NCBI GenBank assembly: GCA_030426145.1
Contig: JAUHZF010000008.1
Location: 819 to 64,818 of the forward strand
Length of the DNA: 64,000 nt
Direction of reading: 5' to 3'
Source of the DNA: Polyangia bacterium
GTDB taxonomy: Bacteria; Myxococcota_A; Polyangia; Polyangiales; Polyangiaceae
The first letter of the stretch is position 1, and each line of letters begins with the position of its first letter. The position numbers and the translations under genes were made by a program. Positions 14,420-28,477 of this stretch are shown here, in pieces. The notes below the pieces were generated by a model. It made no database searches and was not told the DNA's origin. It saw nothing but the letters and a program-made list of their open reading frames with translations.

Positions 14420-14422
14420 GGC

Positions 14423-15097
14423 TCAACGAGGGCAGTTCTGGTGGTTCGGACCGCGCTTACCACACTTCTCGGCACTCGCTTCGAAGCCCTTGTTGGGGTC
14501 GTTGAGCATCTGGTAGTCCTCCTCTTGGCCGTTGCGGTACCTGTCGAAAGGGCCCTTGATTTCGAGGGTGCGGTTGCCGACCAGCCCGTCGGGGAATCGC
14601 AGCCGGCAGCCGTTACCATAGACCTGCCGCCACCCGTTCACGCCTGGCGCCACGTTGCGGAACATCTGGCCGATGCCGAGACAGTTGCGAAAGACGCCGC
14701 CGCTCATGCCCGAGAGCATGCCCATGCCGGCTCCAAGGAGTGTTCCGCCCGCCATGTAGGCGGCCCTCGCGTGTCCTCCCGCAACCGCGCGACAGGCCGG
14801 GCCGATGACCGGGTTGTTGGCGAGGCTCGCCGCGGTGCCGACAAACCTACCCACGATGCAAGGCACCTCGCGAGCCGTGGCCGCCGCAAGCGCACGCCCG
14901 GCCTGGGTGTTCGGCGCCGGGAGGTTGTTGAGCGCGTCGAAGAAGTAGTTGTTGAAGGTGCCGCGTGGTCGAAGTCGGGGGCGCTGACAGAAGACCTCGG
15001 CCGCCTGCGTGAAGGCGCGGCAGTACAGCTCCCACTTCTGCCCGTCAGGCATGGTGAGGCCGGCATTGACGAGCGCGGTTGGAGCTTGGGTCGCCAT
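14423..15097 (-). CDS. Putative T6SS cargo effector with a C-terminal PD-(D/E)xK-like motif
   Basis: 224 aa, directly downstream of the PAAR-like gene. It contains a Gly-zipper-like hydrophobic stretch (GGTLLGAGMGMLSGMSGG) and, near the C-terminus, RLRFPDGLVGNRTLEIKGPFDRYRNGQ, which fits PD...ExK. Confidence 0.65.
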   Translation of the reverse strand: MATQAPTALVNAGLTMPDGQKWELYCRAFTQAAEVFCQRPRLRPRGTFNNYFFDALNNLPAPNTQAGRALAAATAREVPCIVGRFVGTAASLANNPVIGPACRAVAGGHARAAYMAGGTLLGAGMGMLSGMSGGVFRNCLGIGQMFRNVAPGVNGWRQVYGNGCRLRFPDGLVGNRTLEIKGPFDRYRNGQEEDYQMLNDPNKGFEASAEKCGKRGPNHQNCPR

Positions 15098-15126
15098 GCG
15101 TCAGCCCCTCATCACCGAGCCGGGGA

Positions 15127-15501
15127 CTATGTGTTGGAGTTGCCGCTGTCGAGCGTGCGTGCCACGCCACCCGACTCGGCCTTCACGTCGTTCGACGACA
15201 TGGTGATCTTGCACATACCCATGATCTTGTTGCTCACCACCCCGAGCGCGACGCCCGGTTGATCGCCGTTGGATAGAGCAGACTTGCCCTTCTTGGTCCA
15301 CATCGGCGTCGCCATGACCAAGGTCTTGGTGGTGTACCCAGGGCCCATCGTCGCCGACAAGGCGATGTTCGGATAGGGCATGGGCACGGGGCCGCCGGGG
15401 GTAGGTGTTTTGCACACGTCGAGGGGTCCCGTCGTCACTGCTGTGTGGCCCGAAGCAACGCTGGCGCAGAACTTTTTCGAATTGACGAGCGGCACGCCCA
15501 C
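15127..15501 (-). CDS. PAAR-like DUF4150 domain protein (T6SS spike-tip protein)
   Basis: Hallmarks: PLDVCKTPTPGGPVPMPYPN, SNGDQPGVALGVVSN, and the C-terminal SSNDVKAESGGVARTLDSGNSN. Confidence 0.8.
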   Translation of the reverse strand: MGVPLVNSKKFCASVASGHTAVTTGPLDVCKTPTPGGPVPMPYPNIALSATMGPGYTTKTLVMATPMWTKKGKSALSNGDQPGVALGVVSNKIMGMCKITMSSNDVKAESGGVARTLDSGNSNT

Positions 15502-15555
15502 AGTTTGGCACGTTCCGGCGATGATGTCCTCGGGCGGACAGCGCTCGCAGATCCC

Positions 15556-16560
15556 TCACAGCTTCTCCTTGCGCATGATGAGGAGCTGTTCGACCTCCTC
15601 GTACTTCCTCGGGAGGCGGAAGGACGCGCGCCAGGTGAGCTCGACCCGCATAGCGTCGGCGTCGATCAGCACCGTGTCGAGATGGCTTCTCGCCTCGCTG
15701 CGGCGGCCCGCAACCAACATCGAGAACCCGAGGTGGAGACGGGGCAGCGCGAACTGCCACAGCCCCTCCGGTGTTGCGCCGATGACCTCGACCGGCTCAT
15801 CGCCAGCCAAACCAGCCATGCACCATTGGTCCTCGGGAGCACACACATTGAAGCGCGGATCGAAGTCGTCGGGCAGGAGCGGCATCTTGTAGCTCATCCA
15901 CGCTTCGTCGTAGGTCCCGGCGAAGCGACAGCGTGGCTCCCAATGTCGGTGAAGGGGTCCAAAGCACCATGGCGTGTGGTCGCTCGTGAGGCTGCCTCGC
16001 TCGATCTGCACCGCGGGCTGGCCTACGAGCTGGGACGGGTCGCTCGCCACCCCACGGCCGACCGTGTTGCGCGCGTCGCCAACCGGTCGCTCTGGGTCCG
16101 ACAGGTCGAGACCGCCCCATGCGAGCTCGTACTTCAGCGGCACGGGCTGCTGGATGGGCTGTGCCGGTCCTGGCCATGGTCGCCCACCGCTAGTGCTTTC
16201 CCAGACCCTGGGTCCGTAGACACGCGCCGACTTCTTGATGGGACCCATACGCAACGACACGTCGACCGCCTTGTCCAAGCCCGGACGACGAGGGTGCGCG
16301 TGGCCCACCAACAGGACATCCGTCCCTGGCTTGAAGTCAAAGACATCGGAGGGCTTGCGAATGCTGCTCATGGCCGGGTCCTCGCCGTGCCATTCATCCA
16401 CCAAGTAAGGACGCGGGGCCTCGGTCGCCGCCGTGACGTGGCCACGCGCATCCACATCGAAGGTCTGCTTCGCGATGAGTACGATCTGGTCGCGCCCGTC
16501 CTTGTCCTTCATCGGAAGGGCCGCGTGCTGCGTCGGCGACTCGTTCAATACGTCGAGCAT
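15556..16560 (-). CDS. DUF2169 domain protein (VgrG-associated adaptor family)
   Basis: The start MLDVLNESPT at 16560 overlaps the vgrG stop (TGATG). DUF2169-like blocks: IVLIAKQTFDV, FKPGTDVLLVGHAH, CFGPLHRHW, FNVCAPEDQ, DTVLIDADAMRVELTWR. The listed 534-aa form is a spurious extension. Confidence 0.85.
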   Translation of the reverse strand: MLDVLNESPTQHAALPMKDKDGRDQIVLIAKQTFDVDARGHVTAATEAPRPYLVDEWHGEDPAMSSIRKPSDVFDFKPGTDVLLVGHAHPRRPGLDKAVDVSLRMGPIKKSARVYGPRVWESTSGGRPWPGPAQPIQQPVPLKYELAWGGLDLSDPERPVGDARNTVGRGVASDPSQLVGQPAVQIERGSLTSDHTPWCFGPLHRHWEPRCRFAGTYDEAWMSYKMPLLPDDFDPRFNVCAPEDQWCMAGLAGDEPVEVIGATPEGLWQFALPRLHLGFSMLVAGRRSEARSHLDTVLIDADAMRVELTWRASFRLPRKYEEVEQLLIMRKEKL

Positions 16561-18782
16561 CACTTGTCCTCGACCACCGGAACTAACTCGGGTTGAGGTC
16601 CGGTCGCGGTCAACTTTATGGTCGATGACTTGATCACCACGCTGCCCCCACCGATCGCCACCGAAGAGCCTCCCACCTTGAGAAGGATCTTGGCTCCGTT
16701 CATCGAGACCGCGCCGCCGACGTTCACCGTTAGGTTGCCATTGCTCTCGAAGCCGACCTCGCTCGCCGCGTTTGCCGCCCAGGCTCCGCCGACCGTCGTC
16801 GCCTTGGCGCCGCCCACCTTGACCCCCACGTCGGCACCGCTCGCCTGAACAAGCGCCCCGCCGACTGTGGTCGCCTTCGCCCCTAGCGTGGTGTCGCTCT
16901 TGCCCGTGGCGCAGGCCTCCACCTTGGCGCCCCCAACCGAGATGGTCGTCGCGCCCGCGACGGCGATGCCTACCTCCAGCGCCGCGACTTCCAGGCAGCT
17001 GCCCCCGACCGTCTCGGTGAGCGTGGCCGGGGTGCTGACCCCAACGCTCATCGGCGTCATGGTGGTGTGACTGCCCCCGATGGTCCAGGTGCGGTCGCCT
17101 TTGACGGTGATGTTCTCGCCGCCGCCCACCGTCTTTGTGCGGGAGGCACCAACCGACCAAGTCTGGGCTCCACCGACGGTAAGCTGATGCGCGTCGCCTA
17201 TGGTCGTGGTCTCATTGGCGCCCACATCACGCGTGTGATTGGCCCCCACCGCGACCTGGGCATCGGTGGTCACTTTCTCGGTCTTGTCGTTGGCCACGAC
17301 GAGGTTCTGGTCCTTCTCCGCGTGCACGTGAACGTGCTCGGACCCTGCCGCGTCCTCCATGCGCACCTCATTGTGTCCGCCTCCCCCCGGAGACGACGAA
17401 GACTGAAGCGACGACTGCGTCTTTGATCCAGGGAGGGGATAGGGGGGGCGATAGGTCCCGTTGTAAAGCCGGCCGAGCACGACCGGTCGGTCGGGATTGC
17501 CGTCCTCGAAGTCGACCAGAACCTCCCAGCCAACCCGAGGGATGGCCACCGATCCGCTGGTGTGCATCTGGGTGACTCTCACCCAGGCCGAGCTCGTGTC
17601 ATCAGAGGCTCCTCCGCGGTCGAAGGGGAACTTGACCTTGATGCGGCCGAACTCGTCGCAGTGGATCTCCTCTCCGGGCGGCCCGGTCACGGTGGCTAGC
17701 TGCGGCCCGGGGACCAGGGCCCGCGGTCGTGGATGGCTGCGAAATACCATCGTCGCCGGCAACAAGTGGAACGTGTTCTCGTACTGCCGCTCGGCGTCGT
17801 GGGCGTAGCGATGCGTCACGTTGCGAACCACCCAACGCTCTTCGAAGGCGCCTCCGGGTCCCTCCATCAGAGAAAAAGCGTGGCCCGCGGAGAATCCAAA
17901 GCACGTGCTCATGCCTTCGAGGCCGACCGATGCCGCCGTCCATGCGTCGACCCGCACACGAGCTCTGCGACTTCCCTCCGAAGCATCCGAATACCCCCCC
18001 GGGAAGTCGTACTCTTCCAACCCCAGTACCGCGTCCGACGTCGCTTCCACCTCGAGGAGGCCGGGTCGCTTGAAGTCGTGATCGCGGAGCGTCACCTTCC
18101 CCGGACGCACCTGCTCCACCTCCTCGAGCCAATGGATCGCCTCGGCCCCGGTGAGCGCGCGCTCCTCGCGAAAGATGACCTCGGGCAGATCGACGTAGGC
18201 GCTCGGATCATCGGCGAGCACGACACGCGGCTCCCCGTCCTCGATCTCGACGAAGCCGAAGATCCCGTCTTCGGCCATCAGCCGAAGCAGGAAGTCGTAG
18301 CTCGTCTCGCCGTACTGGGTACAGATCTCCCGTTCAGGCAACGTCCCCGTGATCCGCCACAAGATGCGGTCCGACAGAACCGCTTCGTCGAAGACCTGGC
18401 TTGCGATGTCCTGGCTCGTCATCTCCTGGAAGAGCCGATAGTCCCGCGTGTGCCGAAGCAGAACGAATGGGGACTCGATGACCACCGCGATGTGCTGATG
18501 GGTGTCGCGCCCCTCTATCCCGAGTGGGGTCGCATCCTCCCCCACCGACGTCACCACGCCCGCGAAGTGACGCAACGGCTCACCGTCCCGCATCACGACG
18601 ACGGAGGCGCCACCGAGGAGCCACGCCTGGGGCTCGATCTGGGCGCCGGGCAGAACGACGTCGACGTCGATACGGTAGTCGGGGGTCAGTGACTCGACGA
18701 CGGTGAAGCGTCGAACCGTCACCATGCTCGGGTCGACGCCTTCCACGGCGAAGACCACTTCGTATTGGTCCTTCGTGCTCAT
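16560..18782 (-). CDS. vgrG: Type VI secretion spike protein VgrG, copy 3 in transcription order
   Basis: gp27/gp5 core motifs: LFQEMTSQDIASQV, GPPGEEIHCDEFGRIKVKFPFDR, IPRVGWEVLVDFEDGNPDRPVVLGRLYN. It has a C-terminal beta-helix with VGG repeats. Confidence 0.95.
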   Translation of the reverse strand: MSTKDQYEVVFAVEGVDPSMVTVRRFTVVESLTPDYRIDVDVVLPGAQIEPQAWLLGGASVVVMRDGEPLRHFAGVVTSVGEDATPLGIEGRDTHQHIAVVIESPFVLLRHTRDYRLFQEMTSQDIASQVFDEAVLSDRILWRITGTLPEREICTQYGETSYDFLLRLMAEDGIFGFVEIEDGEPRVVLADDPSAYVDLPEVIFREERALTGAEAIHWLEEVEQVRPGKVTLRDHDFKRPGLLEVEATSDAVLGLEEYDFPGGYSDASEGSRRARVRVDAWTAASVGLEGMSTCFGFSAGHAFSLMEGPGGAFEERWVVRNVTHRYAHDAERQYENTFHLLPATMVFRSHPRPRALVPGPQLATVTGPPGEEIHCDEFGRIKVKFPFDRGGASDDTSSAWVRVTQMHTSGSVAIPRVGWEVLVDFEDGNPDRPVVLGRLYNGTYRPPYPLPGSKTQSSLQSSSSPGGGGHNEVRMEDAAGSEHVHVHAEKDQNLVVANDKTEKVTTDAQVAVGANHTRDVGANETTTIGDAHQLTVGGAQTWSVGASRTKTVGGGENITVKGDRTWTIGGSHTTMTPMSVGVSTPATLTETVGGSCLEVAALEVGIAVAGATTISVGGAKVEACATGKSDTTLGAKATTVGGALVQASGADVGVKVGGAKATTVGGAWAANAASEVGFESNGNLTVNVGGAVSMNGAKILLKVGGSSVAIGGGSVVIKSSTIKLTATGPQPELVPVVEDK

Positions 18783-18790
18783 GGTAGACC

Positions 18791-21004
18791 TCAGTTGTGC
18801 TTCACCACAGAGCCCTTCTTGTTCACGACAGCGCCCGGCGCGAGGATGGTCGGCGCCTTGACCTCGACGCTTCCGCTCTTGACCTTGACCGAGCTCCCCC
18901 CGCAGCGAATCGAGATCTCGCTCTCGGCCTCGATCTCGATGGTAGGCGCATTGGCCAGTAGTGCTCCGCCCACGTTGAAGACCAATGGTCCCGTCGCCTG
19001 CTCGCCGACGTTGCCTCCGGCGGCAATGGCGTAAGCGCCGCCCACCGTCTCGGCGAGGGCCCCTTTGACGCTGGTCTCGACCCCGCTCGCTCCGGCACAG
19101 ACCTTCGCACCGCCGACCGTCTCGGCCACCGCGCCGCCGGTGATGTTGTCGACCCCCGTGGCCGCTGCGCTGACCCAGGCGCCTCCCACGGTGATGCTCA
19201 GGGATCCCAGGACCAAGCGATTCACCCCGAGGGCGGCGACGTCCATCATCGATCCCCCCACCGTGAGGGTACGGCCGCTCTTGGCTTCGACCTTGCTGCC
19301 CATGGTCACGGTCACGGTCCTCGATCCCCCGACTGTCACCGTTTCGGAGCCCTTGATCTGGGTCCCTCGGTCGCCCCCGACCGTCACCGTCTCACTGCCT
19401 CCCACCGTGCAGCTCTGATCGTCGGTAATGCCGCAAACGAGCTGCGTCCCCACCGTTACGTCGAGATTGGAACCAATGGTGTGTGTGTAATCGACGCCCA
19501 CCTTGTCGGTCTTGTTGTCACCAATGGTGACGTTCATGTCCTTGGTCGCGTTCATGAAGATCTCCTCGGAGCCCTTCTTGTCTTCGAACCGGATCTCGTT
19601 GCTGGTTCCGTCCCCCGGGGTCGTGGCCGTCTGCCAGGCCGTGCGCGTCTTGTTCTCGGGAAGTGTGTAGGGAACGGGATGCGTGCCGTCGTAGACGTGA
19701 CCGGCCACGAACGGCACGTCGACATCGTCTTCGTTGAAGCCGACCAGCACATCCCAGCCGATGCGCGGCATGATCATCGAGCCACCCAAGGCGAACTGCC
19801 CCACCCGCATCCAGGTCGACGCTTTGTCGTCCTTGCCCCCTTCGCGGTCCCAGTAGAGCTGCACGCGCACACGCCCGGTGTCGTCGGAGAGGATCTCCTC
19901 CCCCGGCGGACCGACGACGATGCCCGTCTGCGGCCCGCCGGTGCTGCGCGTGGGCGATGTTCGTGCGGCACGGTATCGCGTGTCCACCGCGATGGCGCGC
20001 CACGCCACCGTGAGCTCTTGCTCGACCGGAAGCTCGGCGCCGCCCGAAGAGGTCTCCTTTCCCGGCGTGTAGTTCACCTCGAGCAGCAGGTACGTCCCGT
20101 TCATCGACTCGAGGGGATGGCCCTCGATCTCGAAGGTCATGCCGGGCTGGAGATGGCCCCCAACGGCTTCTCCGTAGGTGACCTCCGCTTCGGCCGTAAG
20201 GGCTTCGAGCTCGACATCGGCGAGCCGCTGCCCCTCGGAGGGGTCGGCGAAGCGCCCGGGACAGTCGTACCGCTCGAGGGTGTCATCGCCGGCCGAGACG
20301 TCGAGCGACAGGCTCGGTTGCTCGAAGTTGTAGTCGCGATAGCGGACTCCCGTCGGCACCATCTCGTGTCGTCGGCCCAGGGAGTGCACCGCCTGGGTCG
20401 CCATCATCAGCCCGGCCGGGTCGCGGAAGGTGAAGGCCGCATCGCCGGGCACCGACGAGGCATGGGTCGTGTCATCGGCGAACACGAGCGTGGTGTCGTC
20501 AGCGGTATGCTCGAAGAAGTAGGTGATGCCCTCTTCGCCCGCGAGCCGAGCGATCACGTCCCAATCCGACTCGCGGTACTGCACGATGTAAGGGCGCACG
20601 GGGAAGCTCCCGTGAACCCGCCACTCCACCGACGCATCGATACTCGCCGTGTCGAGGATCGCCTTGATCGCCGCCACCGCATCCATCTCCTGAAAGATGC
20701 GGCTGTCGGTTCCGTAAGTGAGCTGCGAGACGGCAGGGCCGAGCGTGAGCACGTGCGACACCGCACCCAACGAGCTCATCCGCCTACGAACCCCATAGAC
20801 GTATCCGTGGACGAAGCTTCGCGCTTCGAGGGCATCGCGCAGCGTGAGCTTGAAGGACTTCCCCACGAGCGCATCGACCGCCGGTCCGCCGTCCATGGGA
20901 AGGGTCTCGACCTCCAAGCCGAACGGCTTGGACAGCTCGAAGCGCGCGCGTGCACTGGCCACGCGCATGGTCTCTCCGGATACATCGATCTCGAGCGGAC
21001 GCAT
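18791..21004 (-). CDS. vgrG: Type VI secretion spike protein VgrG, copy 2
   Basis: IFQEMDAVAAIKAILD, GPPGEEILSDDTGRVRVQLYWDREG, MPRIGWDVLVGF, and a C-terminal beta-helix. There is an 8-nt gap to the next vgrG. Confidence 0.95.
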   Translation of the reverse strand: MRPLEIDVSGETMRVASARARFELSKPFGLEVETLPMDGGPAVDALVGKSFKLTLRDALEARSFVHGYVYGVRRRMSSLGAVSHVLTLGPAVSQLTYGTDSRIFQEMDAVAAIKAILDTASIDASVEWRVHGSFPVRPYIVQYRESDWDVIARLAGEEGITYFFEHTADDTTLVFADDTTHASSVPGDAAFTFRDPAGLMMATQAVHSLGRRHEMVPTGVRYRDYNFEQPSLSLDVSAGDDTLERYDCPGRFADPSEGQRLADVELEALTAEAEVTYGEAVGGHLQPGMTFEIEGHPLESMNGTYLLLEVNYTPGKETSSGGAELPVEQELTVAWRAIAVDTRYRAARTSPTRSTGGPQTGIVVGPPGEEILSDDTGRVRVQLYWDREGGKDDKASTWMRVGQFALGGSMIMPRIGWDVLVGFNEDDVDVPFVAGHVYDGTHPVPYTLPENKTRTAWQTATTPGDGTSNEIRFEDKKGSEEIFMNATKDMNVTIGDNKTDKVGVDYTHTIGSNLDVTVGTQLVCGITDDQSCTVGGSETVTVGGDRGTQIKGSETVTVGGSRTVTVTMGSKVEAKSGRTLTVGGSMMDVAALGVNRLVLGSLSITVGGAWVSAAATGVDNITGGAVAETVGGAKVCAGASGVETSVKGALAETVGGAYAIAAGGNVGEQATGPLVFNVGGALLANAPTIEIEAESEISIRCGGSSVKVKSGSVEVKAPTILAPGAVVNKKGSVVKHN

Positions 21005-21008
21005 GTGC

Positions 21009-23312
21009 TCACCCCAGGAGGTTCGGGCTACCAGAGACCTTGATGGCGCCCGATGCGTCGAGGGTCACCATGCCAACGAAGCTCGCCGACGCCGGAGTGA
21101 GGTTGACGATTCCCCCACCGCCGAGGAGATTTGCGACTCCGAGGACGTTGATCGAGACCTTGCTGCCCTTCATGGTGAACTTGCTGCCGGCATTGGCATT
21201 GATGAGGCCACCCACCGTGACGGCAGTAGCCCCCTTCGTGGAGGCGAGCCGATTGCCTCCCGCCGCCTGCACGCAGACGCCACCGACCGTGCAGGCATAG
21301 GCGCCGATGACGGACTCGGTGACCGACTTGCCCGACGCGGCGACCTTGGCGCCCCCGATGGTCTCGGCCTTGGCGCCGGCGACGGCGACCCCCACCCCCA
21401 AGCCGGCGGCGGAGAGCATCGACCCGCCCACGGTCAACGCCTGGGCGCTGGTCGCCGTGCGGTCGATCCCCAGGGCAGCCAGCGCAGTATGGCTGCCCGC
21501 GGTGGTCTCGCTGTCGCTTCCTTCGATGGTGGCGTTGATGGCTCCGCTCACGGTCACCGTCTCGCTCGCACCGACGGTCTTGGAGCGGTCTCCGCTGATC
21601 ATCGTGGTCGCGTTGGCCCCCACGGTGAGAGAGCGGTCGCCCCCGATGGTGACGTCCTGATTGGCCCCGACCTCGAGCGTGCTGTTGACGCCCACCTCCT
21701 GGGTCTCGTTCACGCCAATCTGTTCGGTGCGGTTGTTGTTCGTCTGGCCGTCGAAGTCCTTCGATGCATTGACGAAGAACTCCATGCCGCCGCCCCCGTC
21801 CTCCATACGGTACTCGTTCGACTTCCCGCCACCTGGGCTCGTCGGCGTCTGCAGGGCCATGCGGGTGCCGGCAGATGGGTAGCCGTAGGGAGAGGTCTTC
21901 TCGCCGTTGTAGAGCCTCTGAGCACCGATGGGGCGATCGGGATCACCATCCCAATAGATGACCGACATCTCCCACCCGACCCGGGCTAGGGCCATCGAGC
22001 CGCCGATGGGCAGCTGGAGCGTGCGCATCCAACGCGAGCTGGTGTCGTCGTCAGCGCCGAGCCGGTCCCAGAAGAACTTGCCCTTCATGCGACCGTACTC
22101 GTCGGTGTGGATCTCCGATCCAGAAGGACCGGTGACGACCACGCTGTGATTGCCCCGAAGGCGCGGGAGGGGCGTGCGTCGGGGTGGTCGATATGGAACC
22201 CCACGGTCCATGCACTCGAACCGGTTGGTGTAGCCCTTCTCTTCGTCATCGCCGCGTGGTCGAAGCGACCACTGGTGCTCGACACGACGGAGCAGCCACT
22301 TCTTGTTGAGCGCATCCCGAGCCGCCCCCGCGAGCTCGAACCACCTGCCGGCCCCAAGGGTCGCGATGTTGGAGACGCCACTCCCAAGGCTGCGCTCCGC
22401 CGCGATCTCCTGGGCCCGAATCTCCGCCAAGGCTTGTCCCTCTTCGGGAGTGAGGTGGCCGGCAGTGTACTCGTAGTCGTCGCCGACGGCTTGCCCGGGA
22501 AGGCTGTGCGTGAGGTTGAGGTCGACGGCGGGCGTCTCGAAGTTGTAGTCGCCGACGCTCGCGCTCTCGGCCGTCACCCGCGAAGTCAACCTCAGCCGTC
22601 GAATACCGACCCCGGACGTGTGCTCCCCCACCAGGGGCCACTCCGTGATTCCGTCGATGGGGAGGAACGCACTCTGCGCATCTGCAATGTGCAGGTTGGA
22701 GGTCCCCTCCTCGTCTGCGACGAAATAGAAGATCCCCTCGTGCTCCAGCAGGCGCGAGAAGAAGGCATGATCGGACTCGCGGTACTGCACACAATAGACG
22801 CGGACGGGGAGACTCCGGTGCACGCTCCAATGGCGCGTCGTGTTGGTCAGCGCCCCCCGGTCCAGCACGTCGTCCACGATCTGCTGCGTATCGAGCTCCT
22901 GGAACATGCGAACGTCGGCCTTGATCTCGAGACGCGTCAGCTCGTGGGCGAGCTCGAGCACGTATTGAAGGCCACTGCCATCGATCCCGGCAAACCGCAC
23001 CGCCCGCACGAGAAAGTGGAAAAAGCGCGCCGGGCTTCCGTCGAGGAGCACCACCAGCACCGCCGGCGCACCGAGTGCGCTCGCGAGATCGAGCTCCGAA
23101 GAGGAGACGACGGTGACCTCCGCCCGACTGGATCGCGAGATCTCTTCGACTACCGTGGCACGAACGAGGACGAGCTCAGCGCTCCCCAGCGCGTCGCACC
23201 GCAGCTCGAGATCGAAACGATTGGCCATCTCTCCATCGGCTGCCACGGCGGCCGAGGCTAGCAGGTTCCCGATCCCGTCGGGATCGGTTTTCCTTGAGCG
23301 CAGGGATGCCAT
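21009..23312 (-). CDS. vgrG: Type VI secretion spike protein VgrG, copy 1
   Basis: MFQELDTQQIVDDVLD, GPSGSEIHTDEYGRMKGKFFWDR, ARVGWEMSVIYWDGDPDRPIGAQRLYN. GAGGAG lies 8 nt upstream of the ATG at 23312. An alternative start is Met29 (MANRFDLELR, 23228), preceded by GGAGAG. Confidence 0.93.
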   Translation of the reverse strand: MASLRSRKTDPDGIGNLLASAAVAADGEMANRFDLELRCDALGSAELVLVRATVVEEISRSSRAEVTVVSSSELDLASALGAPAVLVVLLDGSPARFFHFLVRAVRFAGIDGSGLQYVLELAHELTRLEIKADVRMFQELDTQQIVDDVLDRGALTNTTRHWSVHRSLPVRVYCVQYRESDHAFFSRLLEHEGIFYFVADEEGTSNLHIADAQSAFLPIDGITEWPLVGEHTSGVGIRRLRLTSRVTAESASVGDYNFETPAVDLNLTHSLPGQAVGDDYEYTAGHLTPEEGQALAEIRAQEIAAERSLGSGVSNIATLGAGRWFELAGAARDALNKKWLLRRVEHQWSLRPRGDDEEKGYTNRFECMDRGVPYRPPRRTPLPRLRGNHSVVVTGPSGSEIHTDEYGRMKGKFFWDRLGADDDTSSRWMRTLQLPIGGSMALARVGWEMSVIYWDGDPDRPIGAQRLYNGEKTSPYGYPSAGTRMALQTPTSPGGGKSNEYRMEDGGGGMEFFVNASKDFDGQTNNNRTEQIGVNETQEVGVNSTLEVGANQDVTIGGDRSLTVGANATTMISGDRSKTVGASETVTVSGAINATIEGSDSETTAGSHTALAALGIDRTATSAQALTVGGSMLSAAGLGVGVAVAGAKAETIGGAKVAASGKSVTESVIGAYACTVGGVCVQAAGGNRLASTKGATAVTVGGLINANAGSKFTMKGSKVSINVLGVANLLGGGGIVNLTPASASFVGMVTLDASGAIKVSGSPNLLG

Positions 23313-23378
23313 CAGGGAGACTCCTCGCCTCGGAAGTCACCGTCGGCGGGCGACGGAAGAGACCGCGAGGGGAGCACG

Positions 23379-23879
23379 ATGGAGGAGAGCACGACGACGA
23401 CAGCCGTCCCACCGCGTCTCGACGAAGTGCACGGACTCACCCTCAAGGCCCACGCGGAAATCGCAGCCGAGCTGGCAGAAGGCACCGTGCCGCCGGTCGA
23501 CGTGCTCGCCAAGCACGAGCTCGACGAGGCCAAGTGGAACGAGGCCACGACCCAGTGGATGAAGTACCTGGCCGCCGACGTGCAGGCGCGAGGCGCCGAG
23601 GCGCGCGCGCCGCTCGTGTACTCGGACGCCTTCGCGCAAGCACAAGGTCGGCTCGCCGAACCACCCCAGATCAGCGCCGAGGACTACGCGACCTTGGTGG
23701 CGGAGATCATGGCCGCCGGAGATCCGGCCGGACCGCTCGCGCGGCGCGGCTGGTCGAACGCCGACTACATTCGCCTCTCGCGATCGATGGCTACGAAGCT
23801 CGCGAGCGATGAAGAAGCCCACGAGCGATACTTCCATCGGCTCGTTCACCTGCAGCCGAAGGGGGACGTGCAGTCGTGA
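23379..23879 (+). CDS. Hypothetical helical protein; carries LxL...W-x6-W module copy 1
   Basis: 166-aa ORF divergent from vgrG, with GGGGAG 5 nt upstream of the ATG. GC is high at codon position 3. ATGA-type overlap with the next gene. Confidence 0.6.
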   Translation: MEESTTTTAVPPRLDEVHGLTLKAHAEIAAELAEGTVPPVDVLAKHELDEAKWNEATTQWMKYLAADVQARGAEARAPLVYSDAFAQAQGRLAEPPQISAEDYATLVAEIMAAGDPAGPLARRGWSNADYIRLSRSMATKLASDEEAHERYFHRLVHLQPKGDVQS

Positions 23880-24343
23880 CCATCGATGCCACCGTGGAGA
23901 CGACACGCGCCGAGCCCAAGACGAGCGGGGCCACCGAGGGCGAGCTACGCGCGTTGCGCTTGTGCTCCCTCGACGACGAGACGGCCGTCCTCGGCCTCGG
24001 AGGGCGCCAAGTACAGGCGAACATCGACGAAGGTGTCGACCGCGCCGTGTTGGAGGGTGCACGCTCCCGCGGCGAACGGGTCATCGCCGTGCACGAAGCG
24101 GGAACCTGGACCGTCCTCGGCGTTCTTCGAACGCGTGCCACCCCCGGTCTCGAGCCTGGCGACGACTTCACCATCGAAGCGAACCGCGTCAAGGTGATCG
24201 CAGACCACAGCTTTCTCGTGCGAAGCGGACCCACGAGTTTCTCGATGCGGGCACAGGGCTTCGTCGAAACTCTGGCCAAAGACATCTCCACCCGGGCCAC
24301 CGCCGTGCACAAGCTCATCGGGCGGCTGGTCCGCATCAATTGA
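23876..24343 (+). CDS. Hypothetical small protein whose C-terminus resembles a VgrG terminal beta-helix
   Basis: 155 aa. Its C-terminus (TIEANRVKVIADHSFLVRSGPTSFSMRAQGFVETLAKDISTRATAVHKLIGRLVRIN) aligns by eye with the VgrG-2 end (TIEIEAESEISIRCGGSSVKVKSGSVEVKAPTILAPGAVVNKKGSVVKHN). Confidence 0.6.
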   Translation: MTIDATVETTRAEPKTSGATEGELRALRLCSLDDETAVLGLGGRQVQANIDEGVDRAVLEGARSRGERVIAVHEAGTWTVLGVLRTRATPGLEPGDDFTIEANRVKVIADHSFLVRSGPTSFSMRAQGFVETLAKDISTRATAVHKLIGRLVRIN

Positions 24344-24349
24344 CGCGAC

Positions 24350-24673
24350 GTGAGCGACGGCGAGCTTCCTCAGTTCCCAGGGGGACCCGACCCCAACCTA
24401 CCCATTCCGCGAGAGGCCGTAGAGGGCCTCAGCCTCACGCAGTATGGTGCGCTGCTCGCCGAGCTCGTGGCCGCGCCTACCAAACGGGCCGAGATCCTGC
24501 GTGCCCATCGACTCGACGAGCTGCAGTGGAACCGGGTGGAGCAGACCTGGCTCCTGCGGGTCGCAACGGCGGCCATGAAGCGAGATCTGTCGTTTCAGGC
24601 CGAGCTCGACGAAGCCTTCGGCCAGCGGCGCGCGCAGCTGCGGACCTCTGAGGGTCAGCATCATGACGGATGA
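24350..24673 (+). CDS. Hypothetical small helical protein; LxL...W-x6-W module copy 2
   Basis: 107 aa. EGLSLTQYGALLAELV...ILRAHRLDELQWNRVEQTW parallels residues 17-57 of the 23379 protein. Confidence 0.55.
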   Translation: MSDGELPQFPGGPDPNLPIPREAVEGLSLTQYGALLAELVAAPTKRAEILRAHRLDELQWNRVEQTWLLRVATAAMKRDLSFQAELDEAFGQRRAQLRTSEGQHHDG

Positions 24674-25724
24674 TCTTCCTGCTGGGTCCGCCACCATCGC
24701 CGGCGTCGGTGCGCGCACCCACAACGGGTTCACCGCCTTGCAGGTCACCATGGCCCTACGGGCGGATCACATGGACCCGACGATGTCGCACATGGTCGAC
24801 GCGCACGGAGAAGCGATCGCGACCTGCCGCGACATGTCGATCGGCGACGACGTGCAGGGTCTCGCGCGCTTCGTCGCGCTCGCGGTGCGACCTCTGGCCG
24901 AGGCGGCTCGACCTTGGTGCGAGAACGAGATGCGCAGGCGGGGCTCGGTACGACCCCTCCCGGTGGTGGTCGCATTGCCTTCGCCAGATCGCCCTGGCTT
25001 CGACCACGACCTACCGCGGAGCTTCCTCTCCCTGGTCGTCGAAGGCGCAGGCCTACCGGTCGATCCCGCGTCGCGACTCGTCTTCGGGGGAAGGGGCGGC
25101 GGGGTCGAAGCATTCCGGTTGGGCTTGGAGCTGATCCGCGAAGGACGAGAAGCGGTGCTCGTCGGCGGGGTGGACAGCTACTTCGATCCCGACGTGCTCG
25201 AGCACCTCGCATCAGCCCGACGCCTGCACTCTCTCGAAACGGAGAATGGCTTCATCCCCGGCGAGGCCGCGGCTTTCGTCCTCCTGGTTCGGTCGCGAGA
25301 GGCCACGGCCCTCTACGGCTACGGCGAGCTCCTATCGGCGGTGACCCACGCCGAACCGCAACCCTACGGAAGCGAGGAGCCATGCATCGGCCTCGGGATC
25401 ACCGCCGCCGTGCGTGACGCCGTCGCGGTAGTAGGGCCGACGTCGGGCCGAATCCCGTGGGCCCTGACCGACGTCGCCAACGAGCGTCATCGCGTGGATG
25501 AATGGAGCTATGGCATCACGAGGAGCCATCGAGCCCTACACCCGGACGCCGAGCACGAGCAGCCACTGCTGAACACGGGAGACGTGGGCGCCGCGAGCGC
25601 CGCCATGCTGCTCAGCATTGCTTCGGTTCAATGGCAAACGGGATGCGCACACGGAGACTGTGTGCTCATCGGAACACACTCGGACGGCCCCATGCGCGGA
25701 GCCATGGTGGCGCGAGCGAAATGA
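24663..25724 (+). CDS. Beta-ketoacyl-synthase-like (thiolase-fold) protein lacking the catalytic Cys-His-His triad
   Basis: KAS-like blocks: AVLVGGVDS, ENGFIPGEAAAFVLLV, NTGDVGAASAAM (in place of GHxxGAAG). There is no Cys at the expected nucleophile position (FGGRGGGVEAF). Confidence 0.7.
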   Translation: MTDDLPAGSATIAGVGARTHNGFTALQVTMALRADHMDPTMSHMVDAHGEAIATCRDMSIGDDVQGLARFVALAVRPLAEAARPWCENEMRRRGSVRPLPVVVALPSPDRPGFDHDLPRSFLSLVVEGAGLPVDPASRLVFGGRGGGVEAFRLGLELIREGREAVLVGGVDSYFDPDVLEHLASARRLHSLETENGFIPGEAAAFVLLVRSREATALYGYGELLSAVTHAEPQPYGSEEPCIGLGITAAVRDAVAVVGPTSGRIPWALTDVANERHRVDEWSYGITRSHRALHPDAEHEQPLLNTGDVGAASAAMLLSIASVQWQTGCAHGDCVLIGTHSDGPMRGAMVARAK

Positions 25725-28477
25725 CCACGGCGACCGAGGCAGACGAAGCACCCGGCGTGCAGGCCGCCCACATGGCCCGGCGGTCGATCGACCGCGCCCT
25801 CAGGCGCGTGCGGGACATCCCGCTCACCTTCGATCGCGACGCGGTCGGGACGCGCCTTCATCGGTCCATCCAGTGCCTCTACGCCGTCATCGATAGCGAG
25901 GTCACATCACGTGTGCACTACGATGGGCTCTCCGAAGCCAAGAAGCTGGCGGAGGAGTGCCGCGCGCTCCTCCTCGGCGCAGGGAACCCCGACGAGGTCC
26001 CCACGCTGGACGAGGTCGTGGACACCCTGGCATTGGCGACCTCGGGCCTCGCACTGGGCGTCGATGCCGTGGCCCAGATTCAACTGGCGCGGCGCCTCGA
26101 GCTGCACGCCGGGCGTCGACCCGATGGCCACGCGGAGCTGAGACCCCTCCGAGCCTCGCAGGGCATGCCGGAGCTTCACACCGTGGAACGCGAGCCGCTC
26201 GTCTCGGAGATATCCGTGGCTCCCGTGGTCGCCATCAAGGCCCCCCAGCCCGTCCCGCACGTCATACCGCGGCCGACGTCATTCGAGGCGCTGGAAGCCT
26301 TCGTGAAGGCGGGAAGCAGCGGTGAGCTGCCGGGTCAGGCCGATGAAGAAGAGGTGCAGGGAGCGACGGCCATCGTCGCTCCACGATATGCCTTCACCCC
26401 TGCCGTCGCCGAAGCCGAGTGCGTTCGACGCCTCGCCCGCGACTTCCTCGAGAATGCCGCCATCGGACGGGACCTGCGAAAGCCCAACGCCATCGAGAGC
26501 TGGCGCGACCAGGGCCCGTTCGAAGCTCGTCTGTGCCATCAGGTCGATGCCTTCGCGTCGCTCGGCGCCTCCGCACTCCCGCTCGTCAGCCTCTACTGCG
26601 AAGAGATGGACGGCACCGACCCGGGGCGCGCCTTCGCCGCAGCCCTGACGCTGGGCAGCATCGAGGGGCAAGATACCGTCGACACCGCCATCGCCATCCT
26701 GCGCTCGAGTCAGCCCGAGACCTTCCCCGGCTGGCGTGAGGGGTTTGCGCTCGCCCCCAGCCCGAGCATCGACATCGCGATGGGCGAGCTCTGTCGCGAC
26801 GAACGCCCCGACCTGGTCGCCTTCGCCCTCGACGTCCTCTGCGACCGAGGCCGACTTCCCGACGACGTCCTCCGACCACTCCTTCGGCGTGAGGAACCGG
26901 TCGTCGTCTCGGCCGTGGTTCGGGCGCTCGGTCACGGCCTGCCCCAGGACGAGGCTCGGGCAGCGCTCGAGTCGCACCTCGACACCGACGGCAGCGAAGA
27001 GCTCGCGACGGCCGCTCTCAGCTCCCTCGTTGTGCGGGACACCCGTACTGCTCGAAGCCGGCTGCGTCGCGAGCTGGAAGCCCCATCCCCGCGCGTGGCT
27101 TCCCATGTAGCCGCCTGGCTCCTGTGTCTCGCCGGCGACGGCTCGGACCTCGACATGTTGCTCGCCGTCGGTCGTTCTGCTCCACATGCGCGCCTTCTCG
27201 CAGGCTTGGGACGACATGGACACCCAAGCGCGTTGCCTTTTCTCGCTTCCCAGCTCCACCGAGAAGACGAAGAGCTCGTGGCCGCCGCCGCCGAAGCCCT
27301 GGAGCGGATCACGGGCGCCGGTCTGTTCGAGACGGTCGAGGAGCCCTGGGAGATCGAGCTCCCTCCCGAAGCCGAAGCGGCCCTGGTGGTCCCCATTCCC
27401 ACCCGCAAGGTGCGCAGGGTGATCACGGACCCCGACGTGTGGGATCGATGGTTGCGAGATCACCCCATGGCCCCTGGGCAGCGGCACCGGGGCGGGCGCC
27501 CGTTCCACCCATCACACATCATCGACGAACTGGAGAGTCCGCAAACTCCCCCCGAACGGCGCCACGAAGCCGCTTTGGAGCTGCGCATCCATGGGTGTGA
27601 GGTCCCGTTCCGACCGGACGACTGGGCGGCACGGCAGGCGACGCACCTCGTCGACGCACGGGCTGCCATCGAGACACATGGGCGCGAGGGCGGGAGTTGG
27701 CATCACAGCCTCGCGGTCCCGCACCACGTTGAGATCACGACGGAAGCCAAGGACCCTCTGATGGGGACCATGATGATGTCGTCGTTCTCCATGCCAGACC
27801 TCACGTCGTTGCCATTCGCTGGCGCGACGGATCCGGCGACCCTGCCCGTCGATCCCGCGGAGGAACCGCCACCCTCGATCGACCTCGGCCAAACGCTGCC
27901 CCCATCGACAGCGCCACGCAAGCCCGACGCCCCCGTCAAGCCTGCGATGCCGTGGGAAAATCCGCCGGCGGGCCAACCGCGGCCTGCCACCGCGGGCGAG
28001 CCTCCGGCCGTGTCCACCCGAGAGCCTCAGGCTGAAGCGGCACCAGCGTCCCAACCCGCACTCGACCCGCTGCTACAGACCGTGATGTCGGACTCGGGGG
28101 CGGTTGCGCGCGCTGCACTCCCGTTCACCAGCGATGGCCCGCCTGTGCCCCCACCGGCGGAGCCCGCGGCCCCGCCTCCGAGGTTGGACGGCACCATGAT
28201 GTCTACGCCGAGCCCGATAGCCCAGGCCGCGACGCCCTTCTCCACGCCCAAGGGCGACGCTCCCAAGCTCACCCTCGACTGGTACGCCTGGTTGAGCGTG
28301 CGCGAGTCGCTAGGCGCGCAGCTGTTCCAAGAGGCCCTCGAACGTTGCGGCATGCGGGACATCCGGGTGTGGTTTCGCGAGAAGCGGATCTGGCAGCAAC
28401 GACTGGCGACCAACCCCGACGAGGCCCAGCGCCTCGAGCGCTTCATGGCGCACTATCGGGCGCAGCTCGGAGGCTGA
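25721..28477 (+). CDS. Large HEAT-like repeat protein (TIGR02270-like) with a Pro-rich disordered region and a C-terminal LxL...W-x6-W module
   Basis: The start MTTATEADE at 25721 is an ATGA overlap with the previous stop. Blocks FEARLCHQVDAFASLG, PVVVSAVVRALGHG and AAAEALERITGAG resemble the TIGR02270 HEAT-type family (from memory). A Pro-rich tract spans residues ~720-860. Confidence 0.7.
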   Translation: MTTATEADEAPGVQAAHMARRSIDRALRRVRDIPLTFDRDAVGTRLHRSIQCLYAVIDSEVTSRVHYDGLSEAKKLAEECRALLLGAGNPDEVPTLDEVVDTLALATSGLALGVDAVAQIQLARRLELHAGRRPDGHAELRPLRASQGMPELHTVEREPLVSEISVAPVVAIKAPQPVPHVIPRPTSFEALEAFVKAGSSGELPGQADEEEVQGATAIVAPRYAFTPAVAEAECVRRLARDFLENAAIGRDLRKPNAIESWRDQGPFEARLCHQVDAFASLGASALPLVSLYCEEMDGTDPGRAFAAALTLGSIEGQDTVDTAIAILRSSQPETFPGWREGFALAPSPSIDIAMGELCRDERPDLVAFALDVLCDRGRLPDDVLRPLLRREEPVVVSAVVRALGHGLPQDEARAALESHLDTDGSEELATAALSSLVVRDTRTARSRLRRELEAPSPRVASHVAAWLLCLAGDGSDLDMLLAVGRSAPHARLLAGLGRHGHPSALPFLASQLHREDEELVAAAAEALERITGAGLFETVEEPWEIELPPEAEAALVVPIPTRKVRRVITDPDVWDRWLRDHPMAPGQRHRGGRPFHPSHIIDELESPQTPPERRHEAALELRIHGCEVPFRPDDWAARQATHLVDARAAIETHGREGGSWHHSLAVPHHVEITTEAKDPLMGTMMMSSFSMPDLTSLPFAGATDPATLPVDPAEEPPPSIDLGQTLPPSTAPRKPDAPVKPAMPWENPPAGQPRPATAGEPPAVSTREPQAEAAPASQPALDPLLQTVMSDSGAVARAALPFTSDGPPVPPPAEPAAPPPRLDGTMMSTPSPIAQAATPFSTPKGDAPKLTLDWYAWLSVRESLGAQLFQEALERCGMRDIRVWFREKRIWQQRLATNPDEAQRLERFMAHYRAQLGG

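What the first reader, a model, noticed from the sequence alone, without database searches (positions are those of the whole stretch)
23379..28477. Divergent five-gene operon of uncharacterised proteins paired head-to-head with the vgrG triplet, a candidate undescribed accessory system
The operon starts 66 bp from the vgrG start and is tightly coupled (overlaps at 23876 and 25721, a 6-nt gap, and an 11-nt overlap at 24663). It encodes five proteins: (1) a 166-aa helical protein; (2) a 155-aa protein with a VgrG-end-like C-terminus; (3) a 107-aa helical protein; (4) a catalytically dead KAS-like protein; (5) a 918-aa HEAT-like/Pro-rich protein. None has an assigned function. Three of them share a private ~45-aa module. 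The shared promoter region implies co-regulation with the spike genes. As a set this looks like a coherent machine for assembly, loading or regulation of the triple-VgrG spike, not a run of unrelated hypotheticals.
Basis: inference. Interest (0 to 1): 0.78.

Follow-up and report, generated by a model that had tools for sequence, protein, structure and literature searches.

The report
Helper genes for a T6SS spike
These five genes are real and are helper (chaperone-type) genes for the neighbouring type VI secretion spike; three belong to an accessory set described in 2018-2026, and two small helical proteins carry an unnamed domain that elsewhere is fused to the known DUF2169 chaperone.

Summary
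The five ORFs exist exactly as described: 66-bp divergent gap to vgrG, 4-nt, 11-nt and 4-nt overlaps, and one 6-nt gap. They are not five unknowns. g4 is a PRK06147/TvpD thiolase-like protein without the catalytic Cys. g5 is a TIGR02270-like HEAT protein. g2 is a remote DUF6484/TvpC-like protein with an OB-fold.

With the DUF2169 and PAAR-like genes downstream of the vgrG triplet, these rebuild the known P. aeruginosa vgrG1b-type cluster (Tvp class II, DUF2169 "synteny type A"). Here it is split across a divergent promoter.

The new part is g1 and g3. They are paralogues built from a three-helix module, which also ends g5.
- The domain has no Pfam or NCBIfam model and no PDB or viral fold match, despite a pLDDT 94 model.
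- It is not private: 872 representative clusters match it.
- 40 of 50 longer proteins carrying it are DUF2169 proteins with the domain at their C-terminus.

In 12 Polyangiaceae genomes and several metagenome loci, g1, g3 and g2 travel with the same vgrG a/b/c triplet in at least five gene orders. g4-g5 and DUF2169 come and go.

Verdict: a coherent spike-accessory set and a new variant of a known kind. The mechanism of g1, g3 and g5 is inferred, not shown.

The parts
23313..23378 (.). 66-bp divergent intergenic region between vgrG-a and g1
   Evidence: Read directly from the sequence. The consensus scan found no sigma-70-like promoter. A GAGGGGAG Shine-Dalgarno-like stretch precedes the g1 ATG.
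23379..23879 (+). g1: 166-aa all-helical protein made of two copies of a three-helix module; an unnamed domain family
   Evidence: AF2 model has pLDDT 94.1 and pTM 0.79 with 8 helices. No PDB or viral fold match (best E 0.81 and 0.97). No Pfam or NCBIfam match. A full HMMER search found 872 representative clusters. 40 of 50 C-terminal fusions of this domain are DUF2169 proteins.
23876..24343 (+). g2: 155-aa OB-fold protein, a remote DUF6484/TvpC-like candidate mimic of the VgrG tip
   Evidence: AF2 residues 20-86 are confident and form 5 strands plus a helix (OB-fold); the C-terminal 70 aa score below 50 as a monomer. hhalign against 5 annotated DUF6484 proteins gives 86-95% probability and E 5e-6 to 3e-8, running to the shared C-terminal '..LN'. 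No Pfam hit even at E<=10. No similarity to the window's VgrGs.
24350..24673 (+). g3: 107-aa paralogue of g1 that keeps only the first module; orthologues elsewhere have two modules
   Evidence: The broad HMM matches g3 at positions 8-88 with E 2e-21. g3-type orthologues in L001, L004, L012-L021 and L023 span HMM positions 6-154.
24663..25724 (+). g4: 353-aa PRK06147/TvpD-type thiolase-like protein without the KAS catalytic residues
   Evidence: NCBIfam NF004798 matches at E 1.6e-52 over the full length, at 178.9 bits against a cutoff of 342. tblastn finds annotated homologues lying between DUF2169 and PAAR-like genes on proteobacterial plasmids. The family alignment has no conserved Cys at the nucleophile position.
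25721..28477 (+). g5: 918-aa HEAT/TIGR02270-like protein with an N-terminal extension, a HEAT core, a Pro-rich linker and a C-terminal module
   Evidence: HEAT_2 matches at 1.1e-11. TIGR02270 matches at 1e-18 over aa 266-625, at 67.6 bits against a cutoff of 206.8. 22 homologues were found, with source names given only for Sorangium, and 19 of them end in the module.
26516..27595 (+). g5 core (aa 266-625) matching TIGR02270 and HEAT repeats
27761..28255 (+). g5 Pro-rich linker (aa 681-845, 23.6% Pro) with three copies of a short '..GT.M.S....[AL][LT]PF' motif
   Evidence: A similar repeated motif occurs in the distant protein P0084 (BLASTP 6e-7).
28262..28462 (+). g5 C-terminal helical module (aa 848-914)
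   Evidence: The broad HMM gives E 8.9e-8 at 18.2 bits. The module is conserved at the C-terminus of 19 of 22 g5 homologues.
21009..23312 (-). vgrG-a (767 aa)
   Evidence: Phage_GPD, Gp5_trimer_C and TIGR03361 match. Orthologues are 53-57% identical in Sorangium loci.
18791..21004 (-). vgrG-b (737 aa)
16560..18782 (-). vgrG-c (740 aa)
15556..16560 (-). DUF2169 (TvpA-type) chaperone, short form of 334 aa without a C-terminal extension
   Evidence: PF09937 matches at 1.8e-75.
15127..15501 (-). PAAR-like spike tip protein (124 aa) containing PVPMPYP, a PIPY-type motif
   Evidence: PF13665 Tox-PAAR-like matches at 1.4e-25.
12651..15097 (-). Likely cargo and immunity genes: a 224-aa ORF, a 267-aa ORF and a TsiV-like immunity protein
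   Evidence: TsiV PF11876 matches at 3.8e-21. Homologues of all three sit beside the triplet in L001, L014, L017, L019 and other loci.

Best explanation
The operon encodes the cytoplasmic assembly and chaperone proteins for the adjacent VgrG-a/b/c spike, which is capped by a PAAR-like protein. It is a myxobacterial (Polyangiaceae-type) elaboration of the Tvp class II, or DUF2169 'synteny type A', system, with its genes split over a divergent promoter.

Proposed course of events:
1. g2 trimerises into an OB-fold plus short beta-prism that mimics a VgrG tip.
2. The PAAR-like protein (15127-15501) caps g2. The DUF2169 protein (15556-16560) and the catalytically dead thiolase-like g4 (TvpD) shield its hydrophobic faces.
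3. This pre-complex is handed to the VgrG trimer, and g2 is displaced.
4. g5, a HEAT scaffold often fused or adjacent to g4, and the helical-module proteins g1 and g3 are extra subunits. The module occurs free (g1, g3), at the C-terminus of g5, and in other lineages at the C-terminus of DUF2169. It most likely acts as a docking domain that ties DUF2169, g4-g5 and the spike together. This resembles the pentapeptide-repeat domain of class III, which exists both fused (TvpAB) and free (TvpB).

Shown here: the family assignments, the gene neighbourhoods and the domain fusions. Taken from the literature: the pre-complex and hand-over mechanism, demonstrated experimentally only for the S. marcescens class III system and modelled for P. 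aeruginosa. Inferred: the roles of g1, g3 and g5.
For: Family assignments:
- g4 matches PRK06147 and g5 matches TIGR02270 and HEAT repeats.
- g2 matches DUF6484 proteins by hhalign at 94-95% probability and E 3-4e-8, with an OB-fold by AF2.
- DUF2169 and Tox-PAAR-like genes lie downstream of the triplet.
- Annotated proteobacterial loci show the canonical string (VgrG)-DUF6484-TIGR02270-DUF2169-KAS-like-PAAR-like.

Literature:
- PA0095-PA0101 architecture (PMC7970981).
- Synteny type A, the DUF2169-PIPY chaperoning, and P. mirabilis transposon data (PMC11883445).
- Tvp classes and the TvpC pre-complex (PMC13373197).
- PRK06147 lies next to DUF2169 in 74% of cases and is fused to TIGR02270 in 3.8% (PMC7714669).
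- An AF-multimer hetero-hexamer was predicted in Polyangium (PMC13392464).

Links for g1 and g3:
- 40 of 50 fusion proteins are DUF2169 plus the g1 domain.
- A 333-aa DUF2169 gene is followed directly by a gene that opens with the g1 domain.
- DUF2169(+domain)-g4-g5 are colinear in L029/L030, L032, L035 and L037, and g4+g5 form one ORF in L037.
- g1, g3 and g2 accompany the vgrG triplet across at least five rearranged gene orders in 12 Polyangiaceae genomes.
- The module is conserved at the C-terminus of 19 of 22 g5 homologues.
- Every module-bearing protein whose context was read lies beside VgrG or PAAR genes.
Against: - There is no experimental or structural evidence of interaction for g1, g3 or g5.
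- g2 fails the Pfam DUF6484 model, and its C-terminal half is low-confidence as a monomer.
- g4 and g5 score below the curated NCBIfam cutoffs.
- Several related loci have g1 and g3 but no DUF2169, g4 or g5 within 10 kb (L001, L014, L019, L023), so g1 and g3 cannot depend strictly on those partners in cis.
- The five proteobacterial class II loci examined have no module at all.
- No T6SS core genes lie in the window, so activity of the system in this organism is unverified.
Confidence: 0.7

Rival explanations
1. g1 (and perhaps g3) is a transcription regulator of the spike operon. Its three-helix modules would act as HTH-like DNA binders, and it would be expressed divergently from its target.
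For: In every locus the nearest recognised gene upstream of g1 lies on the opposite strand, whichever gene that is: vgrG-a, g2, g3, DUF2169 or g5. A conserved CTGGAC ... CAC[CG]ATG element lies upstream of g1 in the Sorangium loci. Weak, non-significant Foldseek neighbours include TetR, MarR and HTH proteins.
Against: The same domain is the C-terminal extension of DUF2169 chaperones in 40 of 50 fusions and of HEAT proteins, which fits protein docking rather than DNA binding. No DNA-binding family matches in Pfam, NCBIfam or the PDB. All fold matches have E above 0.8.
Confidence: 0.1
2. g1 and g3 are effector-specific adaptors or immunity-type proteins for the cargo genes downstream of the PAAR-like gene (the 224-aa and 267-aa ORFs and TsiV), rather than spike-assembly factors.
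For: Homologues of the 224-aa ORF, the 267-aa ORF and TsiV co-occur with g1 and g3 in many Polyangiaceae loci.
Against: The domain also occurs with quite different cargo: a 621-aa Tox-PAAR-like effector in L029, an Rhs protein in the P0035 locus, and PG_binding and OmpA proteins in L036. It is fused to DUF2169 and HEAT accessory proteins, not to toxins.
Confidence: 0.1
3. g4 is an active condensing enzyme, and the operon makes or modifies a lipid or polyketide-like molecule unrelated to secretion.
For: There is a weak Pfam ketoacyl-synt match (E 4e-4) and an NCBIfam name of '3-oxoacyl-ACP synthase'.
Against: No Cys is conserved at the nucleophile position in 10 family members, and the GH motif is replaced by GD/GN/GE. 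No ACP, reductase or dehydratase genes lie nearby. The family is embedded between DUF2169 and PAAR-like genes in many taxa (PMC7714669).
Confidence: 0.04
4. The five ORFs are a chance run of unrelated hypothetical genes.
For: The exact five-gene order is seen only in this lineage (window, L008).
Against: The genes are repeatedly linked despite rearrangement, there are two independent domain-fusion links, and the module is shared.
Confidence: 0.02

Closest known systems
P. aeruginosa vgrG1b cluster PA0095-PA0101, also called Tvp class II (PMC13373197) and DUF2169 synteny type A (PMC11883445)
   Same: It has the same protein kinds: VgrG, an OB-fold DUF6484-type protein (g2), DUF2169, a PRK06147 thiolase-like TvpD (g4), a PAAR-like/PIPY tip protein, immunity, and a HEAT/TIGR02270 protein (g5).
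   Different: The window has three VgrGs instead of one. Its genes are split over two divergent operons. g2 is too diverged for the Pfam model. g5 is twice as long, with a Pro-rich linker and a helical module. Two extra helical-module proteins (g1, g3) have no counterpart, and no module was found in five proteobacterial class II loci.
S. marcescens Tvp class III (TvpAB, TvpB, TvpC, Paar1; PMC13373197)
   Same: The logic is the same. An accessory domain exists both as a C-terminal extension of the DUF2169 protein and as a free-standing protein, and a VgrG-mimicking TvpC serves for pre-assembly.
   Different: In class III the extra domain is a pentapeptide-repeat beta-helix and TvpC is DUF3540. 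Here the extra domain is an all-helical two-module fold, and neither PPR nor DUF3540 is detected.
Myxococcota VgrG1b-like clusters noted next to COMMD-like genes (PMC13392464)
   Same: They involve the same clade (Sorangium, Polyangium) and the same OB-fold, VgrG, PAAR and DUF2169 neighbourhood. An AF-multimer hetero-hexamer (an OB-fold trimer plus three partners) was predicted there.
   Different: That study centred on COMMD-like proteins and does not describe the g1/g3 domain. No COMMD-like gene was identified in this window. This was tested only by sequence search of the two cargo ORFs against the PDB.
PRK06147 'novel adaptor' proposal (PMC7714669)
   Same: g4 belongs to this family, and the reported PRK06147-TIGR02270 fusions match the g4-g5 pairing found here.
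   Different: That proposal rests on bioinformatics only. In the window g4 is not adjacent to DUF2169 or to the PAAR-like gene.

Membership tests
Tvp class II / DUF2169 synteny type A accessory cluster | Cognate VgrG gene(s) in the cluster | tested here: met
   Three VgrGs match TIGR03361 at E 7e-115 to 1e-130.
Tvp class II / DUF2169 synteny type A accessory cluster | Single-domain DUF2169 (TvpA) protein | tested here: met
   Window 15556-16560 (-) matches PF09937 at 1.8e-75, is 334 aa long and has no extension.
Tvp class II / DUF2169 synteny type A accessory cluster | PAAR-like (DUF4150/PIPY) tip protein | tested here: met
   Window 15127-15501 (-) matches PF13665 at 1.4e-25 and contains the motif PVPMPYP. 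That PF13665 equals DUF4150 is from my own knowledge.
Tvp class II / DUF2169 synteny type A accessory cluster | DUF6484-type TvpC (OB-fold plus short beta-prism) | tested here: inconclusive
   The Pfam DUF6484 model does not match, even at E<=10. hhalign against 5 annotated DUF6484 proteins gives 94-95% probability and E 3-4e-8. The OB-fold is confident in AF2 but the prism part is not. The trimer was not modelled.
Tvp class II / DUF2169 synteny type A accessory cluster | PRK06147 thiolase-like protein (TvpD) | tested here: met
   NF004798 matches at E 1.6e-52 over the full length, but 178.9 bits is below the equivalog cutoff of 342. g4 is 26-33% identical to annotated members flanked by DUF2169 and PAAR-like genes.
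Tvp class II / DUF2169 synteny type A accessory cluster | Armadillo/HEAT TIGR02270-type protein | tested here: inconclusive
   TIGR02270 matches at E 1e-18 but 67.6 bits is below the cutoff of 206.8. HEAT_2 scores above its cutoff. Pairwise BLASTP against a Caballeronia TIGR02270 protein is not significant.
Tvp class II / DUF2169 synteny type A accessory cluster | Colinear operon vgrG-DUF6484-(HEAT)-DUF2169-PRK06147-PAAR | tested here: not met
   In the window g2, g4 and g5 are on the + strand, while vgrG, DUF2169 and the PAAR-like gene are on the - strand. The order varies among related genomes.
Tvp class II / DUF2169 synteny type A accessory cluster | Each accessory protein is required for spike assembly or effector delivery | not testable with these tools
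   This needs genetics and secretion assays.
Tvp class III | Pentapeptide-repeat domain (TvpAB/TvpB) and DUF3540 TvpC | tested here: not met
   Pfam finds no pentapeptide or DUF3540 match in g1-g5 or in the DUF2169 protein.
Beta-ketoacyl-ACP synthase (active enzyme) | Cys-His-His/Asn catalytic triad | tested here: not met
   The alignment of 10 g4-family members has G/R/H at the nucleophile region and D/N/E in place of the GH histidine. The positions of the KAS motifs are taken from my own knowledge of FabF.
g1/g3 helical-module family (unnamed) | Match to the family profile built here | tested here: met
   g1 matches at 1.8e-51, g3 at 2e-21 and the g5 C-terminus at 8.9e-8. The family has 872 representative clusters.

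The most novel reading that the evidence does not exclude
The helical two-module domain of g1 and g3, which is also the C-terminal tag of g5 and of many DUF2169 proteins, would be a previously unrecognised class of T6SS accessory component. It would be a docking domain that defines a fourth Tvp-type architecture, playing the role the pentapeptide-repeat TvpB plays in class III. It may be specialised for assembling a heterotrimeric VgrG-a/b/c spike in Myxococcota-like bacteria, with the three short motifs in the g5 linker contacting a trimeric partner.
Probability: 0.35. Interest if true: 0.65.

Novelty: new variant of a known kind. Interest (0 to 1): 0.5.

Why it matters
DUF2169/Tvp accessory systems decide which VgrG-PAAR spikes a type VI secretion system can build, and their mechanism was only worked out in 2025-2026.

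This locus shows a lineage in which the class II parts list is extended by an unmodelled helical domain. The domain is found free, on the HEAT protein and, elsewhere, on DUF2169. It is consistently paired with arrays of three distinct VgrGs.

That gives three things:
- a concrete handle on the still unexplained HEAT/TIGR02270 component;
- a way to study how extra domains on TvpA-type chaperones work;
- a route to asking whether obligate heterotrimeric spikes exist.

It also supplies a family of at least 872 clusters that merits a Pfam entry and is a useful marker for T6SS auxiliary modules in Myxococcota.

Tried and rejected
1. g2 as a VgrG C-terminal fragment. hhalign against an alignment of 8 VgrGs found nothing. 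The similarity is to the C-termini of DUF6484 proteins instead.

2. g3 as a gene split by insertion of g4-g5, with its second module now ending g5. The idea came from complementary HMM coverage (g3 at 8-88, g5 C-terminus at 89-154) and from the g5 C-terminus hitting g3-type second modules best. I rejected it because 19 of 22 g5 homologues in other genomes already end in a module.

3. A sigma-54 reading of the conserved CTGGAC element upstream of g1. The GG/GC spacing does not fit (inspection).

4. Fold identification of g1. Foldseek against the PDB and BFVD, and a profile search against PDB sequences, all gave nothing.

5. Foldseek on g2 gave only weak generic OB-fold hits, with an AFP baseplate spike at rank 4 and E 0.011.

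6. A COMMD-like gene in the island. The 224-aa and 267-aa cargo ORFs have no sequence match in the PDB, and no structure quota was left to test the fold.

The metagenome scan with A7 returned only 4 short loci.

8. The ORF 15101-15760, which I first used as the 'PAAR-like' gene, is the wrong frame. The real gene is 15127-15501.

9. The word-index homology search suggested that g1 and g2 were near-orphans with 8 hits each. For g1, the full HMMER search showed otherwise.

Full report
OBSERVATION

I call them g1 to g5. An independent gene caller produced the same five calls on an identical public contig (L008).

The first vgrG starts at 23312 on the - strand, which leaves a 66-bp divergent gap. 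The junctions are a 4-nt overlap, a 6-nt gap, an 11-nt overlap and a 4-nt overlap. Each ORF has the coding GC pattern of this roughly 68% GC genome.

The island runs from about 12.6 to 28.5 kb. Unrelated genes flank it: an LRR protein on one side and a CarboxypepD_reg/PDZ protein, thyA and folA on the other. No T6SS core genes lie in the window, so this is an orphan or auxiliary spike module.

WHAT THE GENES ARE

g4 matches NCBIfam NF004798 (PRK06147) end to end at E 1.6e-52, although below the equivalog cutoff. tblastn finds homologues on 97 plasmids. In those that carry annotation, the gene sits between a DUF2169 gene and a PAAR-like gene. In an alignment of ten family members no Cys is conserved at the KAS nucleophile position, and the GH motif reads GD/GN/GE. 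The 'catalytically dead' label is therefore right, and it is a trait of the whole family.

g5 has HEAT_2 repeats and matches TIGR02270 over aa 266-625 at E 1e-18, again below the cutoff. It then has a 23.6% Pro linker (aa 681-845) and a C-terminal helical module.

g2 has no Pfam hit and no similarity to the window's VgrGs. Three results place it as a remote DUF6484-like protein:
- AF2 gives a confident OB-fold for residues 20-86.
- A 23-sequence g2 family profile aligns to five PGAP-annotated DUF6484 proteins at 94-95% probability and E 3-4e-8.
- The alignment runs to the shared C-terminal '..LN'.

On the other strand the vgrG triplet is followed by a 334-aa DUF2169 protein (1.8e-75), a 124-aa Tox-PAAR-like protein carrying PVPMPYP (1.4e-25), two unknown ORFs and a TsiV-type immunity protein.

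COMPARISON WITH WHAT IS KNOWN

VgrG, an OB-fold/DUF6484 protein, DUF2169, a thiolase-like PRK06147 protein, a PAAR-like toxin, immunity and a HEAT protein make up the parts list of P. aeruginosa PA0095-PA0101 (PMC7970981). The same list is 'synteny type A' of DUF2169 clusters, where DUF2169 was shown to chaperone the PIPY/PAAR-like tip (PMC11883445). It is also Tvp class II (PMC13373197).

In the Tvp work, the S. marcescens class III system was shown to build a TvpC pre-complex that VgrG later replaces. For P. aeruginosa, PA0096/PA0097/PA0098/Tse7 were modelled in the same way. PRK06147 had been proposed as an adaptor in 2020 and is fused to TIGR02270 in 3.8% of cases (PMC7714669).

Caballeronia plasmids show the canonical string DUF6484-TIGR02270-DUF2169-KAS-like-PAAR-like. 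A 2026 paper also noted that Sorangium and Polyangium regions resemble the vgrG1b cluster (PMC13392464).

So three of the five 'uncharacterised' genes belong to a described accessory system.

THE PART THAT IS NEW

g1 and g3 are paralogues (BLASTP 1e-9). They are built from a three-helix module of about 45-60 aa. g1 has two copies and the window's g3 has one. g3-type orthologues elsewhere have two copies.

A profile built from 150 family domains hits g1 at 1.8e-51, g3 at 2e-21 and g5 aa 848-914 at 8.9e-8, with noise at or below -1 bit. Nineteen of 22 g5 homologues, the named ones all from Sorangium, end in the same module.

The module is not private. The word-index search found 8 relatives, but a full HMMER scan of 1.84 billion representative proteins found 872 clusters at E<=1e-3 and 187 at E<=1e-10. 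The 157 sequences examined break down as follows:
- 92 are free-standing proteins of 210 aa or less.
- 50 carry the domain at the C-terminus of a longer protein. Forty of these are DUF2169 proteins.
- 11 are multi-module proteins.
- 4 fit none of these classes.

The AF2 model of g1 is very confident (pLDDT 94.1, pTM 0.79, eight helices in two repeats). It has no significant match in the PDB or BFVD (best E 0.81 and 0.97), in PDB sequences, or in Pfam or NCBIfam. None of the papers I read describes this domain.

CO-OCCURRENCE

A scan of GTDB species genomes with the g1 alignment returned 12 loci. All are from Polyangiaceae, Sorangium or Myxococcales. Together with the metagenome loci, they give this picture:
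- Every locus with enough context has g1 beside an orthologous vgrG-a/b/c array (L004's contig ends after two). Each orthologue is about 44-57% identical and the paralogues are about 33% identical.
- Most loci also have a g3-type paralogue and a g2 homologue.
- The genes appear in at least five different orders and orientations.

DUF2169 lies within 10 kb of g1 in about half of the loci. The g4->g5 pair is within 10 kb only in the window, L016/L020 and L018.

g5 homologues do exist elsewhere in at least three of the genomes that lack it near g1. Replicon lengths match for So0157-2, So ce131 and So ce315.

In more distant high-GC metagenome loci the domain is fused to DUF2169, and the string DUF2169(+domain)-g4-g5 is colinear after a vgrG array (L029/L030, L032, L035, L037). 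In L037 g4 and g5 are a single 1011-aa ORF. In another contig a 333-aa DUF2169 gene is followed immediately by a gene that opens with the g1 domain.

Every module-bearing protein whose context I read lies next to VgrG or PAAR genes. Five proteobacterial class II loci contain no module.

MECHANISM

Best supported explanation (confidence about 0.7): the operon supplies the cytoplasmic assembly chaperones for the adjacent spike.
1. A g2 trimer mimics the VgrG tip.
2. The PAAR-like protein caps it and is shielded by DUF2169 and g4.
3. The assembly is transferred to the VgrG trimer.

This part rests on homology and on published work in other species.

For g1, g3 and g5 I infer, with about 0.5 confidence, that the helical module is a docking domain linking DUF2169, the g4-g5 pair and the spike. 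Three observations point that way: the module occurs fused to DUF2169 in some lineages, fused to the HEAT protein in this one, and free in g1 and g3. This parallels the pentapeptide-repeat domain of class III, which is both fused (TvpAB) and free (TvpB).

Rivals:
- g1 as a divergently transcribed regulator. The nearest recognised gene upstream of g1 is always on the opposite strand, and a conserved upstream element exists in Sorangium. I give this about 0.1.
- g1 and g3 as cargo-specific adaptors or immunity proteins, about 0.1.
- g4 as an active enzyme, about 0.04.

VERDICT

Novelty is a new variant of a known kind: Tvp class II / synteny type A, extended by an unmodelled helical docking domain and coupled to a conserved triple-VgrG array. 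Interest is 0.5.

Dead ends are listed under 'tried and rejected'. The most notable is the attractive idea that g4-g5 had split g3, which refuted.

Noticed in passing
window 59427-60956 (-): A second, orphan DUF2169 protein of 509 aa (PF09937 at 1.1e-67) with a Ser/Pro-rich C-terminal tail. It lies among ABC, HlyD and OEP efflux genes, with no vgrG or PAAR gene nearby. The broad HMM finds no g1-type module in it.
   Followed up: partly
window 16560-23312 (-); L012-L023, L001, L004: The three VgrG paralogues (a, b, c) are kept as an ordered orthologous triplet across more than 10 Polyangiaceae genomes. Each is about 53-57% identical to its orthologue and about 33% identical to its paralogues. 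This hints at an obligate heterotrimeric spike rather than three alternative spikes.
   Followed up: partly
window 27761-28255 (+), g5 aa 681-845; L031 P0084: The Pro-rich linker of g5 has three copies of a short motif (L.GT.M.S ... [AL][LT]PF). The distant module protein P0084 has four copies of 'GTALA.DVPRGPALPF' in the equivalent place (BLASTP 6e-7). These may be linear motifs that contact a trimeric partner.
   Followed up: partly
L012, L014-L017, L019-L023, about 10-45 nt upstream of the g1 start: A conserved CTGGAC element, followed about 20 nt later by CAC[CG]ATG just before the g1 start codon. It looks promoter-like and could give a near-leaderless mRNA. It is absent from the window's 66-bp region.
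   Followed up: partly
window 15101-15760 (-) vs 15127-15501 (-): The longest ORF over the PAAR-like region is in the wrong frame. It still gave tblastn 'hits' in related loci, because DNA conservation in a high-GC genome preserves the alternative frames. The true gene is the 124-aa Tox-PAAR-like ORF.
   Followed up: yes
window 13616-15097 (-): Two conserved ORFs of 224 and 267 aa lie between the PAAR-like gene and the TsiV-like immunity gene. They have no Pfam match and no PDB sequence match, and they are the likely cargo effector or effectors (TsiV is annotated as immunity to VRR-NUC toxins). Myxococcota COMMD-like proteins are reported near such clusters (PMC13392464), but none was identified here.
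   Followed up: partly
L037 4325-7360 (+); L029 14403-16163 (-): A natural g4+g5 fusion protein of 1011 aa. Separately, an unrelated 587-aa protein also ends in the helical module, which suggests the module is a portable C-terminal tag on several accessory proteins.
   Followed up: partly
window 4235-6181 (+) and 11622-12656 (+): A GYF_2-domain protein and an LRR protein lie just outside the island. No link to the T6SS module was found.
   Followed up: no
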